This document shows, piece after piece, positions 30,908-31,784 of a stretch of DNA of 64,000 nucleotides. Under the pieces are notes generated by a model, which searched no databases, was not told the DNA's origin, and worked only from the letters and a program-made list of their open reading frames with translations. This DNA is from a virus (lineage: Duplodnaviria > Heunggongvirae > Uroviricota > Caudoviricetes), in IMG/VR virus record IMGVR_UViG_3300022661_000085, positions 12,191 to 76,190 of that record, one strand, 5' to 3'. Position 1 is the stretch's first letter; each line of letters begins with the position of its first letter. The position numbers were made by a program, and so were the translations under genes.

Positions 30908-31784
30908 TTTGCCAAGCGTGACCATAACCACGTAATAGTTATGGGGTGAGCGACTACCAAAGGTCGCAGATGCCCACGAAGCATATGCCTCCTCGTGGTG
31001 TGGGCGGATAACCTTGCGGTTAACGGAACGTATGCAAAGTGTTGTAATGCTCAACCTTACCGAGCAATAGCGGTATAGGGGTACTCTTGCCCACAAGAGT
31101 AACGACCTTGACGATATGACAAGGCGTCGGTTAAGCCGTATGGGAGTAGACCTGCGGCGAGTCAGATAGTGAAAATGGCAACAGGTATGGCATTAAACCT
31201 AAACTCGGCTTGTGCAACGATGTCTATGCGTGATGTTATAATCACGAATACAAGCATTGACCTGCTTTAAGGTTAAGCTATACGCTTACAGTGCCAAGGC
31301 ATTGTATGAGTGGCGAGGTCTTAATGATGTGAATGTCGGCAACGCCGATGGAAGCCGTTGGAATGTGCGAGTATTACGGGCTATAAATAGCGTGAATATT
31401 AACCAAAATACATAGGGTTTGTAGTTATGAGATGCAAACCCTTTACCATATAGGGAGCCGTTAGACAGATCTGTATAGGTTTAACGGCTCTTTTACACCT
31501 AACCTCAAAGCCTCCACGTGGCAGGTGTGGATAACCAACCAATTTGAGGACTACCATAAGGGTTGTGCTTATGGGGCGAGCCTACCGAACGGCAAAAACG
31601 GCATAGCGATGCAACTATGACCTGCCAAAAGTCAGGACAAAAACTTCAATACTTAATAAACGGGGCGGGTTTACGGCTTTCAAGCCGACCGCCTCACACT
31701 ATGTGTGCTCTCAAAAAGCAAGCCTCCCCGTGGCGAGAGTGGATAACCAACCGATTGCTAAAAAAATACATAAGGAGAATTGTT
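30908..31784. other. ~880-nt ORF-free region with internal repeats including DnaA-box-like TGTGGATAA; candidate origin or large ncRNA
   Basis: No ORF of 60 aa or more with an RBS on either strand. Repeats of CCTCCNCGTGG-N6-TGGATAACCAACC occur at 30988, 31511 and 31724. TTATGGGGYGAGC occurs at 30941 and 31568. Confidence 0.45.

What the first reader, a model, noticed from the sequence alone, without database searches (positions are those of the whole stretch)
30908..31784. 880-nt ORF-free region with internal repeats and DnaA-box-like sequences: candidate origin or large structured ncRNA
No plausible CDS exists on either strand. The motif AAGCCTCCNCGTGGC-N5-GTGGATAACCAACC occurs at 31509 and 31722 (33/37 identical), with a weaker copy at 30986. 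TTATGGGGYGAGC..ACCNAANGG occurs at 30940 and 31567. TGTGGATAA (31529-37) is the exact complement of the DnaA box TTATCCACA, and AGTGGATAA (31742-50) is a 1-mismatch copy. Either a replication origin using host DnaA or a large ornate ncRNA is plausible. Large ncRNAs are known from phages, often near tRNA arrays.
Basis: partly seen in the sequence, partly recalled or inferred. Interest (0 to 1): 0.6.

Follow-up and report, generated by a model that had tools for sequence, protein, structure and literature searches.

The report
Self-cleaving ribozymes bracketing phage noncoding RNAs
The "repeats with DnaA boxes" are three hepatitis-delta-like self-cleaving ribozymes that most likely cut a phage transcript into a large folded noncoding RNA, a small folded RNA and the messenger of the next gene, so this is an RNA-processing locus and not a replication origin.

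Summary
In detail: 30908-31784 has no credible gene. It holds a 37-nt motif in three copies and a second motif in two copies.

The 37-nt motif is the catalytic core of three HDV-like self-cleaving ribozymes on the + strand. Two are P4-less "theta" type (31495-31549, 31707-31761). One has a short P4 (30972-31035). A covariance model built only from other phages finds exactly these three sites (E 2e-14, 6e-12, 2e-5). P1 and P2 covary across the family.

The "DnaA boxes" are the P1 3' strand, the P1.1 GG and the AUAA linker of the ribozyme. DnaA boxes are not enriched in the window, and the region is not AT-rich.

Between ribozymes 1 and 2 lies a ~460-nt structured RNA (z = -4.9). Its core is a divergent RAGATH-16 motif, and it ends in a terminator-like hairpin. 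Between ribozymes 2 and 3 lies a ~155-nt conserved RNA ("module B"). Ribozyme 3 sits 24 nt before the start codon of a conserved gene of unknown fold ("gene X").

The layout recurs in relatives sharing 53-97% gene X identity, all from gut Clostridia phages.

Best reading: ribozyme-punctuated processing of one transcript. Cleavage and the RNAs' functions are untested.

The parts
30554..30727 (+). Two perfect 73-nt direct repeats with a 101-nt period. Each holds the hairpin AACCCCUAAAGGGGUU followed by TTGACG. They are candidate tandem promoters or leader elements for the unit; this is inferred, not shown.
   Evidence: D1, 100% identity. The same AACCCCTAAAGGGGTTGACG element precedes a TTGACG-17-TATCAT promoter-like site at 29348-29376. 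Analogous GC-rich tandem repeats stand upstream of the homologous RNA in L045.
30773..30907 (+). Small conserved ORF of 44 aa (MKKF...DCxSRRDAVDAGICDFSGQGRNKYGK). Ribozyme 1 lies in its 3' untranslated region.
   Evidence: It is called as a 44-aa gene in relative L079. The peptide is conserved in L083, L085 and L087.
30922..30967 (+). Two-hairpin motif 'a' (CCAUAAC..GUUAUGG, GGUGA, GCGAC-UACCAAAG-GUCGC). It is a partial copy of module B and ends 4 nt before cleavage site 1.
   Evidence: It resembles the 3' domain of RAGATH-36 in L045.
30972..31035 (+). HDV-like self-cleaving ribozyme 1, with a short P4 (UAACC-UUGC-GGUUA). Predicted cleavage is between 30971 and 30972. The candidate catalytic C is at 31024.
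   Evidence: Rfam HDV-F-prausnitzii and drz-agam-1 weak hits. Model R1 scores 28 bits, E 1.8e-5. For this P4-bearing class, 84% of cells are paired against 34-47% in slid controls, and 15 of 22 pairs carry compensatory changes.
31036..31494 (+). Body of a ~460-nt structured noncoding RNA. With ribozyme 1 attached at its 5' end it is 523 nt.
   Evidence: MFE -157.5 kcal/mol, z = -4.90, 0 of 100 shuffles as stable. An alignment of 8 homologues gives 77 consensus pairs, 29 with compensatory changes. It is syntenic with the RAGATH-16/RAGATH-4 locus upstream of the homologous gene in L045.
31106..31184 (+). Divergent RAGATH-16 core inside the large RNA.
   Evidence: RF03047 scores 26.6 bits, E 0.013, below the gathering score of 65.6. 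Relatives L088 and L089 score 72-73 bits. The extended domain 31096-31270 aligns with 35 other sequences: helices are 79.5% paired against 32-44% slid, and 11 of 13 pairs are compensatory.
31414..31442 (+). Conserved hairpin AGGGUUUG-UAGUUAUGAGAUG-CAAACCCU. The stem covaries and the loop is conserved.
   Evidence: columns 450-472.
31455..31494 (+). Terminator-like hairpin (GAGCCGUUA...UUAACGGCUC) plus UUUU. It forms the 3' end of the large RNA, and ribozyme 2's cleavage site follows the last U directly.
   Evidence: (I5). The hairpin covaries in L086, L087, L088 and L093, and in each it is followed by a ribozyme.
31495..31549 (+). Theta-type (P4-less) HDV-like ribozyme 2: ACACCU|AA|CCUCAAA|GCC|U|CC|ACGU|GGC|AGGUGU|GG|AUAACCAA|CCAA|UUUGAGG. 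Predicted cleavage is between 31494 and 31495. The catalytic C is at 31539. It contains the exact 'DnaA box' (31526-31534).
   Evidence: R1 scores 52.2 bits, E 5.9e-12. A generic descriptor scan finds it. The segment layout is identical to published theta ribozymes.
31550..31706 (+). 'Module B': a ~155-nt conserved structured RNA of unknown function. It comprises hairpins CCAUAAG..CUUAUGG, GCC..GGC, CAUAG..CUAUG, CCUG..CAGG and GGCGG..CCGCC, then CACACUAUGUGU.
   Evidence: it is conserved in L079/81/83/85, and it stands upstream of ribozyme 1 in L093/L107/L128/L141/L153, with compensatory changes in four helices. The single-sequence fold is only z = -1.5. No Rfam match.
31707..31761 (+). Theta-type ribozyme 3: GCUCUC|AA|AAAGCAA|GCC|U|CC|CCGU|GGC|GAGAGU|GG|AUAACCAA|CCGA|UUGCUAA. 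Predicted cleavage is between 31706 and 31707. The catalytic C is at 31751. It lies in the 5' UTR of gene X and contains the 1-mismatch 'DnaA box'.
   Evidence: R1 scores 61.1 bits, E 2.4e-14. A theta ribozyme stands just upstream of the gene X homologue in 11 of 19 genome loci and in L079-L088.
31772..32579 (+). Shine-Dalgarno AAGGAG (31772-31777) and gene X (ATG 31785, 264 aa). Gene X is a conserved phage protein of unknown fold that is always found downstream of the RNA.
   Evidence: 61 homologues. No Pfam or PHROG match. AF2 pLDDT is 91.7 with no annotated structural match.

Best explanation
The region is a transcribed, + strand RNA-processing cassette of a gut Clostridia phage. A transcript starting upstream runs through a small ORF, a ~460-nt structured RNA whose core is a divergent RAGATH-16 motif, a ~155-nt structured RNA (module B) and the 5' UTR of gene X. 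The start probably lies at the repeated elements at 30554-30727.

Three HDV-like ribozymes embedded in this transcript cleave at their own 5' edges: 30971|30972, 31494|31495 and 31706|31707. Each cut falls 4-15 nt after a stable hairpin. The upstream product therefore ends in a protected structured 3' end with a 2',3'-cyclic phosphate. The downstream product starts with a 5'-OH and the compact ribozyme fold.

The predicted products are:
(i) the small-ORF mRNA;
(ii) a 523-nt RNA made of ribozyme 1 plus the large ncRNA, with the same 3' end whether the polymerase terminates at the hairpin-U4 or reads through;
(iii) a 212-nt RNA made of ribozyme 2 plus module B;
(iv) the gene X mRNA, with ribozyme 3 as a 5' cap-like structure 10 nt upstream of the Shine-Dalgarno sequence.

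Shown here: the identity and fold of the ribozymes, by sequence model and covariation; the conservation, structure and synteny of the RNAs; and the recurrence of the layout.

Inferred: that the ribozymes are active in vivo, where transcription starts, and that the released RNAs act as discrete molecules. The biochemical role of the large RNA and of module B remains unknown. Their constant linkage with gene X suggests a shared function or an RNA-protein partnership.
For: Ribozymes:
- There are three weak Rfam HDV-family hits, exactly at the three repeats.
- The core pattern is found in 31 other phage loci. In 17 aligned sequences, P1 is 100% paired with 5 of 6 pairs compensatory. P2 is 88% paired with 6 of 7 pairs compensatory. 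Slid controls give 26-48%.
- Model R1, built without any window sequence, hits only these three sites at E <= 2e-5.
- A generic theta descriptor finds the same three sites and nothing else.
- The segment layout ...GG|ATAACCAA|CCAA|... is identical to published, partly in-vitro-validated theta ribozymes (PMC10879173).
- P4 of ribozyme 1 covaries.

RNAs:
- The large RNA has z = -4.9.
- The RAGATH-16 hit is E 0.013 in the window and 72-95 bits in syntenic relatives.
- Covariation is seen in the extended core, in the full-length RNA and in module B.

Conservation of the arrangement:
- The three-ribozyme layout occurs in L079, L083 and L085.
- Reduced layouts occur in the other relatives. L086 and L087 have one ribozyme on each side of the large RNA. 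L088 has a single hit, just upstream of gene X. L081 holds only the downstream part, with two ribozymes.
- An independent lineage has three ribozymes (L093, L107, L128, L153, L165).
- A twister ribozyme sits at the equivalent upstream spot in L083 and L085.
- A theta ribozyme lies before gene X in 11 of 19 genome loci.

All elements are co-oriented with the flanking genes.
Against: There are no expression or cleavage data.

The window's RAGATH-16 match is far below Rfam's gathering score, and no RAGATH-4 equivalent was found.

Ribozyme 2 starts with A1-U and ribozyme 1 with G1-C, not the usual G1.U wobble, so their rates could be low.

A real terminator before ribozyme 2 would mean that few transcripts ever reach ribozymes 2 and 3, unless another promoter exists.

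The L045-type relatives carry the RNA without flanking theta ribozymes. Excision is therefore not obligatory for the RNA's function.

The promoter assignment is only a consensus guess.
Confidence: 0.72

Rival explanations
1. The large structured RNA is not a free ncRNA. It is a cis-acting leader that controls read-through of the hairpin-U4 terminator into gene X. This would be riboswitch-, T-box- or protein-mediated attenuation, possibly autoregulated by the gene X protein. The ribozymes would merely tidy up the products.
For: The order structured RNA, then terminator-like hairpin, then gene X is invariant across more than 30 diverse loci. In L045, L090 and L152 the hairpin is followed by gene X after 50-80 nt, with no ribozyme. 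Gene X is the only constant protein partner.
Against: In the window lineage, 290 nt separate the hairpin from gene X, including another conserved RNA and two ribozymes. Ribozyme 1 (a twister in L083/85) also severs the RNA from what lies upstream, which a leader does not need. Rfam classes RAGATH-16 as an sRNA gene. No alternative antiterminator pairing was identified.
Confidence: 0.18
2. The region is a replication origin that uses host DnaA.
For: There is one exact and one 1-mismatch DnaA box 212 nt apart. The region is non-coding. It lies within ~3 kb of a switch in gene orientation and skew.
Against: Both boxes are part of the conserved ribozyme core, which is found singly in many unrelated phage contexts. 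Boxes are not enriched: 20 against 14.4 +/- 3.6. GC is 43-50% with no AT-rich element. The sequence evolves by compensatory base-pair changes, which is the mark of RNA. A 24.5% GC iteron region at 28300-28500 fits an origin far better.
Confidence: 0.03
3. The ribozyme-generated ends (5'-OH and 2',3'-cyclic phosphate) are substrates for RNA ligation. The 523-nt and/or 212-nt RNAs would be circularised or joined by host RtcB, or by the phage's own kinase/phosphoesterase/RNA-ligase set.
For: Each released RNA is bounded by two ribozyme cuts, which is the geometry used by retrozymes and by engineered circular-RNA systems (own knowledge). The window encodes a Pnkp-like P-loop kinase, two metallophosphoesterases, a DraRnl-type RNA ligase and a Thg1-like enzyme. 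That ligase family is 140-fold enriched in theta-ribozyme phages (PMC10879173).
Against: No complementarity brings the two ends of either RNA together (hand inspection). HDV-like ribozymes are not known to favour ligation. The repair genes are equally well explained by tRNA repair or maturation, since the window holds 16 ARAGORN-called tRNA genes (18 Rfam tRNA matches). No data bear on circularity.
Confidence: 0.07

Closest known systems
Theta ribozymes / minimal HDV-like ribozymes of gut Caudoviricetes (Riccitelli et al. 2014, own knowledge; Kienbeck et al. 2024, PMC10879173)
   Same: They share the same nested double pseudoknot, and copies 2 and 3 lack P4 as theta ribozymes do. Segment-by-segment sequence is the same as published entries (e.g. 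[quoted passage not shown] The habitat is the same: gut phages of Bacillota and Bacteroidota. They co-occur with a DRB0094-type RNA ligase.
   Different: None of the three is next to a tRNA. They fall in the paper's 'non-tRNA-associated, function unknown' group. Here they follow the terminal hairpins of a large ncRNA, of a small RNA and of an mRNA 3' UTR. One lies in a 5' UTR. Copy 1 keeps a P4. Copy 2 starts with A.
RAGATH-16 RNA motif (Rfam RF03047; Weinberg et al. 2017, PMC5737381)
   Same: It shares the conserved GGCGUCG...AGAUAGUGAAAAU core and the covarying closing helix. It shares the genomic neighbourhood in phages, and its name records an association with ribozyme-rich loci.
   Different: The window copy is divergent (26.6 bits against a gathering score of 65.6), and its inner hairpin is replaced. 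The comparative data here show that the 72-nt Rfam motif is only the core of a ~450-nt RNA. That RNA has further covarying helices and a terminal hairpin, and gene X always lies downstream.
HDV-like ribozymes at the 5' end of R2 and other non-LTR retrotransposon RNAs (own knowledge; cf. PMC11331408)
   Same: A ribozyme embedded in a longer co-transcript cuts at its own 5' edge. This frees a downstream RNA that keeps the ribozyme fold at its 5' end just before the coding region.
   Different: This is a bacterial virus, and no retrotransposon is involved; the RT gene in the window is 10 kb away. There are several ribozymes in tandem, which also define the 3' ends of noncoding RNAs.
Large ornate bacterial and phage RNAs (GOLLD, ROOL, HEARO/omega RNA)
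   Same: It is a large, conserved, highly structured noncoding RNA encoded by a phage that is rich in tRNA genes.
   Different: There is no sequence or structure match to any of these Rfam families. It is smaller (~460 nt). It is flanked by self-cleaving ribozymes.

Membership tests
HDV-like (delta-like) self-cleaving ribozymes | Nested double pseudoknot: P1, P2 and P3 helices plus the 2-bp P1.1, in the order P1-P2-P3-P3'-P1'-P1.1-(P4)-J4/2-P2' | tested here: met
   All three window copies form P1 (6 bp), P3 (3 bp), P1.1 (CC/GG) and P2 (5-7 bp). Across 17 relatives, P1 is 100% paired and P2 88% paired, with 11 compensatory pairs, against 26-48% in slid controls. The P4-bearing class gives 84% against 34-47%.
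HDV-like (delta-like) self-cleaving ribozymes | Catalytic cytosine at the first position of J4/2 (C-N-R-A) | tested here: met
   CCAA (C at 31539), CCGA (C at 31751) and CGGAA (C at 31024). This C is invariant in alignment A2 and in the published list.
HDV-like (delta-like) self-cleaving ribozymes | G1.U wobble closing P1 at the cleavage site | tested here: inconclusive
   Copy 3 has G1.U. Copy 2 has A1-U, though its homologue in L083 has G1.U. Copy 1 has G1-C, though its homologues in L085 and L087 have G1.U.
HDV-like (delta-like) self-cleaving ribozymes | Mg2+-dependent self-scission, abolished by mutating the catalytic C to U | not testable with these tools
   Four related theta ribozymes were active in vitro (PMC10879173). 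None of the window copies has been assayed.
HDV-like (delta-like) self-cleaving ribozymes | Match to an Rfam HDV-family model at its gathering score | tested here: not met
   HDV-F-prausnitzii scores 15.8-17.9 bits against a gathering score of 44. drz-agam-1 scores 14.2 against 37. No Rfam 15 family matched these sites at its gathering score. The purpose-built model R1 scores 28-61 bits.
Theta ribozymes (minimal, P4-less subgroup) | No P4 domain: a short single-stranded linker lies between P1.1 and J4/2 | tested here: met
   Copies 2 and 3 have the 8-nt linker AUAACCAA, as in the published entries. Copy 1 does NOT meet this feature: it has a 5-bp P4 with a UUGC loop. It is therefore an HDV-like ribozyme but not a minimal one.
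Theta ribozymes (minimal, P4-less subgroup) | Cleavage site within +/-5 nt of a tRNA 3' end (the tRNA-associated class) | tested here: not met
   No tRNA is found in 30300-32000 by ARAGORN or Rfam. The nearest tRNA is at 35.5 kb. The three copies belong to the non-tRNA-associated class (n = 526 in the paper).
RAGATH-16 RNA (RF03047) | Score at or above the Rfam gathering threshold | tested here: not met
   The window scores 26.6 bits against 65.6 (E 0.013). Syntenic relatives pass: L088 72.4, L089 73.5 and L045 95.6 bits.
RAGATH-16 RNA (RF03047) | Conserved GCGUCG and AGAUAGUGAAAAU strings, and a covarying closing helix | tested here: met
   Both strings are present at 31127-31132 and 31164-31176. 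The closing helix is GUU/AAC in the window against CCGG/CCGG elsewhere. All 4 of its pairs show compensatory changes across 36 sequences.
DnaA-dependent replication origin | A cluster of several DnaA boxes above background, next to an AT-rich unwinding element | tested here: not met
   There are two boxes only, both inside ribozyme cores. The window-wide count is 20 against 14.4 +/- 3.6 expected. GC is 43-50% across the region.
GOLLD / ROOL / HEARO and other Rfam large RNAs | Covariance-model match | tested here: not met
   There is no hit even at E <= 10 in 30300-32000, and none at gathering score in the window.

The most novel reading that the evidence does not exclude
The three ribozymes define a natural 'cut-out' system for phage noncoding RNAs. 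The ~520-nt RAGATH-16-type RNA and the ~210-nt module B RNA would be released with 5'-OH and 2',3'-cyclic-phosphate ends. They would then be healed and sealed, possibly circularised, by the phage's own kinase, phosphoesterase and DraRnl-type ligase, or by host RtcB. The result would be stable RNA (perhaps in complex with the gene X protein) with a dedicated role in infection. If so, theta ribozymes would be general 3'/5'-end makers for structured RNAs, not only tRNA trailers.
Probability: 0.1. Interest if true: 0.85.

Novelty: new variant of a known kind. Interest (0 to 1): 0.55.

Why it matters
Theta ribozymes were described in 2024 mainly as tRNA 3'-end processors. About 40% of them (the non-tRNA-associated class) were left without a proposed role. 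This locus gives a concrete, conserved context for that class: cuts placed directly after the terminal hairpins of a large ncRNA and a small RNA, and in the 5' UTR of one particular gene family.

It also shows that RAGATH-16 is the core of a ~450-nt covarying RNA that always lies just upstream of one protein family of unknown fold. RAGATH-16 is an orphan Rfam motif that was found because it lies in ribozyme-rich neighbourhoods. This gives experimenters defined ends, defined partners and a defined host group (gut Clostridia phages) for working out what the RNA does.

On the practical side, it warns that 'GGATAA' DnaA-box look-alikes in phage intergenic regions can be ribozyme cores.

Tried and rejected
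- Nucleotide search of the region against 50,697 GenBank phages found no match.
- Gene X alone against IMG/VR found no relative. An alignment query then found only the 33%-identity L045 group.
- PHROG and Pfam gave nothing for gene X, the small ORF's neighbours or the 407-aa upstream ORF. The upstream gene's homologue in L045 has weak sigma-70 region 4 / LuxR HTH hits.
- Gene X structure: the AF2 model is confident (pLDDT 91.7). It has no significant PDB match (best E 0.49). In BFVD it matches only two uncharacterised phage proteins. The PDB sequence profile search gave nothing meaningful.
- Literature: 'RAGATH-16' appears in no held paper. The supplement of the 2017 motif paper is not held, and the 2015 ribozyme paper is not held.
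- A search of the theta paper's supplements for the window's ribozyme strings found nothing, because the files separate segments with '|' and are truncated. Whether these exact sequences are already listed is therefore unknown.
- BLAST between the window region and the RAGATH-16 loci detected only the ribozyme cores. Homology of the large RNA had to be shown by synteny, the covariance model and alignment.
- RNAalifold on the MAFFT alignment of 36 cores recovered few helices, so helices were defined by hand and tested.
- No RAGATH-4 or RAGATH-36 equivalent was detected in the window.
- tRNA-like interpretation of motif a was rejected. Only 4 nt separate its last hairpin from the cleavage site, and there is no acceptor or T-arm geometry.
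- Transposon or retroelement interpretation was rejected. The flanks of the three copies differ, P1 and P2 are copy-specific, and the RT gene is 10 kb away.
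Full report
**1. The observation**

The stretch 30908-31784 begins right after the stop codon of a small ORF and ends right before an ATG at 31785 that is preceded by AAGGAG. Only short ORFs occur on either strand, apart from a TTG-started extension of the downstream frame.

The repeat finder confirms a 37-nt family at 30985, 31508 and 31720. Identities to the middle copy are 68% and 86%. It also confirms a 13-nt pair at 30939 and 31569. The degenerate core CCTCCNCGTGG-N7-GGATAA occurs three times in the 64-kb window, against none in 100 shuffles.

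The DnaA-box look-alikes exist, at 31526-31534 (exact) and 31738-31746 (one mismatch), both read on the minus strand. Such 9-mers are not enriched in the window: 20 found against 14.4 +/- 3.6 expected.

**2. What the main repeat is**

A permissive Rfam scan put three weak hits of one family, the HDV ribozyme of F. prausnitzii, exactly on the three repeat copies. All are on the + strand (15.8-17.9 bits). Read by hand, each copy has the HDV-like layout:
- a 6-bp P1: GCCCAC/GUGGGC, ACACCU/AGGUGU and GCUCUC/GAGAGU
- a 3-bp P3: GCC/GGY, closing the loop UCCNCGU
- a GG that pairs with the loop CC (P1.1)
- a P2 whose strands differ in each copy but stay complementary: GCAUAU/GUAUGC, CCUCAAA/UUUGAGG and AGCAA/UUGCU

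Scanning IMG/VR for the core pattern returned 31 phage loci. I aligned 17 distinct in-register sequences, none of them from the window. In these, P1 is paired in 100% of cells, with compensatory changes at 5 of 6 pairs. P2 is paired in 88% of cells, with compensatory changes at 6 of 7 pairs. Sliding the partners by 1-3 columns gives 26-48%. P3, L3 and P1.1 were fixed by the search pattern, so they say nothing. P1 and P2 were free, so this is a real test.

A covariance model built from those 17 sequences (R1) finds four things in the window:
- 31705-31762: 61.1 bits, E 2.4e-14
- 31493-31550: 52.2 bits, E 5.9e-12
- 30972-31013: 28 bits, E 1.8e-5
- one weak hit at 45140-45189 on the minus strand (E 0.11)

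A generic theta-ribozyme descriptor written from the published segment scheme finds the same three sites and no others on either strand.

[quoted passage not shown] (PMC10879173 Supplementary Data 2). Copies 2 and 3 are therefore P4-less 'theta' ribozymes.

Copy 1 carries an insertion that forms a 5-bp P4 with a UUGC loop. Among 12 homologues of this P4-bearing type, the whole structure is 84% paired against 34-47% in slid controls. Fifteen of 22 pairs show compensatory changes, including pairs in P4.

The first position of J4/2 is C in all three copies (31024, 31539, 31751). That is the catalytic cytosine of the family.

The 'DnaA box' TGTGGATAA is the last three bases of P1, the P1.1 GG and the first four bases of the linker.

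**3. What lies between the ribozymes**

*The large RNA.* The 457 nt from 31038 to 31494 fold with z = -4.90; none of 100 shuffles folds as well.

Its centre (31106-31184) matches RAGATH-16 at E 0.013, well below the family's gathering score. Searching IMG/VR for the two conserved RAGATH-16 strings gave 24 phage loci.

In one of them, L045, the order of elements is this:
- an HTH/sigma-like gene
- a terminator
- three GC-rich tandem repeats
- RAGATH-16 (95.6 bits)
- RAGATH-4 (150 bits)
- a terminator-like hairpin
- a gene whose product is 33% identical to the window's gene X (E 4e-43)

That is the same order as in the window, where a sigma-like gene (29471-30390) and the 73-nt repeats precede the region.

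*A graded series of relatives.* A search with gene X returned 61 homologues between 28% and 96% identity. I fetched the DNA around seven of them. Their upstream regions contain the same blocks as the window. Model R1 finds the following ribozymes:
- three in the 96% and 82% relatives (L079, L083, L085)
- two in the 70% and 56% relatives (L086, L087), one on each side of the large RNA
- two in the 89% relative (L081), which holds only the downstream part of the locus
- one just before gene X in the 53% relative (L088)

RAGATH-16 passes its gathering score in the 53% and 49% relatives (72.4 and 73.5 bits), which ties the divergent window copy to the family.

In L083 and L085 a twister-P1 ribozyme (57-60 bits) follows the small ORF. 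That is where the window has its two-hairpin motif.

*Covariation beyond the Rfam motif.* One metagenome scan with a conserved block downstream of the Rfam motif gave 114 loci. After filtering, I aligned 36 diverse sequences, the window's among them, spanning the motif plus about 75 nt on its 3' side. Three hand-defined helices were tested: the RAGATH-16 closing helix and two helices outside the Rfam model. They are 79.5% paired against 32-44% in slid controls, and 11 of 13 pairs have compensatory changes.

A full-length alignment of eight homologues gives 77 consensus pairs, 29 of them compensatory. These include the hairpin at 31414-31442, which has a conserved loop, and the terminal hairpin at 31455-31490.

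The Rfam motif is thus the core of a ~450-nt RNA.

**4. The second repeat and module B**

TTATGGGGYGAGC belongs to a two-hairpin unit. Its full version opens a ~155-nt element (31550-31706) between ribozymes 2 and 3.

This 'module B' is conserved in L079, L081, L083 and L085. In a second lineage (L093, L107, L128, L141, L153) it stands upstream of the first ribozyme instead.

Four of its helices show compensatory changes between the lineages:
- CCAUAAG/CUUAUGG against CCAUAGG/CCUAUGG
- GCC/GGC against GCG/CGC
- CCUG/CAGG against CUUG/CAAG
- the terminal GGCGG/CCGCC-type hairpin

The copy at 30922-30967 is a partial module B that ends 4 nt before cleavage site 1. Part of the unit resembles the 3' domain of RAGATH-36, which lies 2 kb downstream of gene X in L045. 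No Rfam family matches module B.

**5. How it most likely works**

Every element is on the + strand, like the flanking genes. HDV-like ribozymes cut at their own 5' edge, leaving a 2',3'-cyclic phosphate upstream and a 5'-OH downstream (established chemistry; PMC10879173).

In all three cases the cut falls just after a stable hairpin:
- GCGAC..GUCGC + AGAU
- GAGCCG..CGGCUC + UUUU
- GGCGG..CCGCC + UCACACUAUGU

This is the geometry theta ribozymes have behind tRNA acceptor stems.

I therefore propose that one transcript is cut into four products:
- the small-ORF mRNA
- a 523-nt RNA: ribozyme 1 plus the large RNA
- a 212-nt RNA: ribozyme 2 plus module B
- the gene X mRNA, which carries ribozyme 3 ten nucleotides before its Shine-Dalgarno sequence

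Placing ribozyme 2 immediately after the hairpin-U4 gives the large RNA the same 3' end whether transcription stops there or reads through.

A theta ribozyme directly upstream of the gene X homologue is found in 11 of 19 loci from Clostridia genome bins, so this 5'-UTR position is a conserved trait. It plausibly uncouples the mRNA from the upstream RNA. It would also give the mRNA a structured 5'-OH end that resists 5'-end-dependent decay (inference from general RNA-decay knowledge).

The fold and conservation are shown. Activity, transcript boundaries and the function of the RNAs are inferred or unknown.

**6. Rivals**

(a) A cis-acting leader or attenuator for gene X fits the invariant order RNA, hairpin, gene X. 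It does not explain the excision at both ends, or the 290 nt of other elements in between.

(b) A DnaA-dependent origin is contradicted by four things: the box statistics, the GC content, the RNA-type covariation, and the fact that the 'boxes' are ribozyme core. A 24.5% GC stretch with three to four 25-nt iterons at 28300-28500, at the switch of gene orientation, is the better ori candidate in this window.

(c) Ligation or circularisation of the excised RNAs is suggested only by the end chemistry and by the phage's kinase, phosphoesterases and DraRnl-type ligase. It has no direct support.

**7. Comparison and novelty**

The ribozymes are members of a known kind. They fall in the theta/minimal HDV-like group, in its unexplained non-tRNA-associated class. 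One of them is a P4-bearing relative.

The large RNA is a divergent member of the RAGATH-16 family, whose function is unknown. New here, as far as the held literature shows, are four points:
- tandem HDV-like ribozymes bracketing a large ncRNA and a second small RNA
- the extension of RAGATH-16 to a ~450-nt covarying RNA
- its constant linkage to one protein family of unknown fold (AF2 pLDDT 91.7; no annotated structural match)
- the conserved 5'-UTR ribozyme of that gene

The host group is gut Clostridia. A 97%-identical gene X lies on a 106-kb contig from a sheep-colon Clostridia bin.

I rate it a new variant of a known kind, of moderate interest. Interest would be higher if the excised RNAs prove to be ligated or to form a particle with gene X.

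Noticed in passing
window 28300-28500: A very AT-rich stretch (24.5% GC) with three to four 25-nt tandem iterons (ATAAGCTCTCTTATATAGTAAGCTAATA) and overlapping palindromes. It lies exactly where gene orientation and AT skew switch. A perfect TTGACA-17-TATAAT promoter faces left at 28254-28226. This is a better candidate origin or divergent control region than the finding.
   Followed up: partly
window 28500-29460 and 30400-30740: Unusually GC-rich (up to 63%) non-coding DNA, full of short hairpins with 3-4-nt loops (for example CCCCGAAGGGG and AACCCCUAAAGGGGUU) and CCGACC runs. The element AACCCCTAAAGGGGTTGACG occurs three times (29337, 30560, 30661). Relatives have different but analogous GC-rich tandem repeats at the same place (L045 1500-1690).
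   Followed up: partly
window 35501-35968 and 36159-37676: Three abnormally long tRNA-like genes (116-127 nt) and a Tyr tRNA. There is a weak YrlA (Y RNA-like) match at 35564-35678. Directly upstream of them lies a 505-aa protein with DUF2828, DUF7788 and VWA domains (PHROG 'RNA-binding protein'). This looks like a phage Ro/Y-RNA-type module. The same pairing is seen in L079 and L083.
   Followed up: no
window 41996-43390 and 44342-45079: A reverse transcriptase gene (RVT_1, 464 aa) followed by a DUF6273 protein. This may be a diversity-generating retroelement. No repeat analysis was done.
   Followed up: no
window 45873-49541, 57632-58441, 60863-62002: An RNA-repair-type gene set: two metallophosphoesterases, a Pnkp-like P-loop kinase (AAA_33/KTI12/Zeta), a Thg1-like 3'-5' nucleotidyltransferase and a DraRnl/DRB0094-type RNA ligase. 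That ligase family is reported as 140-fold enriched in theta-ribozyme phages.
   Followed up: partly
window 52548-56925: An NAD salvage and synthesis cluster right after the tRNA array: an isochorismatase/nicotinamidase-like protein, a phosphoribosyltransferase, a NAPRTase/NAMPT-like protein, a Macro domain protein and NAD synthase.
   Followed up: no
L059, L060, L062, L064, L066-L068, L072, L074, L204 (contig ends): Many independent assemblies of related phages end 260-1120 nt upstream of gene X, in or next to the GC-rich tandem repeats that precede the RNA locus. In L204 the end corresponds to about window 30665. Either the repeats break assemblies or the physical genome ends are there.
   Followed up: no
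L083 197-256 and L085 189-249: A twister-P1 ribozyme (57-60 bits, just under the gathering score of 67.2) directly follows the small ORF. The window has its partial module B at that position. Different ribozyme classes therefore occupy equivalent positions in close relatives.
   Followed up: partly
L087 1667-1718 and 1933-1983; L045 10019-10058; L050 9725-9790: Further HDV-like ribozyme hits lie between small genes downstream of gene X (L087). Others lie about 8 kb from the RAGATH-16 locus, near tRNA genes, in the L045 group. Their core is 23-26 nt identical to window ribozyme 1.
   Followed up: no
window 45140-45189 (-): A weak match to the theta-ribozyme model (13.8 bits, E 0.11) with UGGUAACCAAC but a poor P3. 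It is probably chance.
   Followed up: no
window 62799-63800: A tyrosine integrase gene, which suggests that the phage is temperate. Relative L081 has an integrase and four tRNA genes inserted upstream of a truncated copy of the RNA locus.
   Followed up: no
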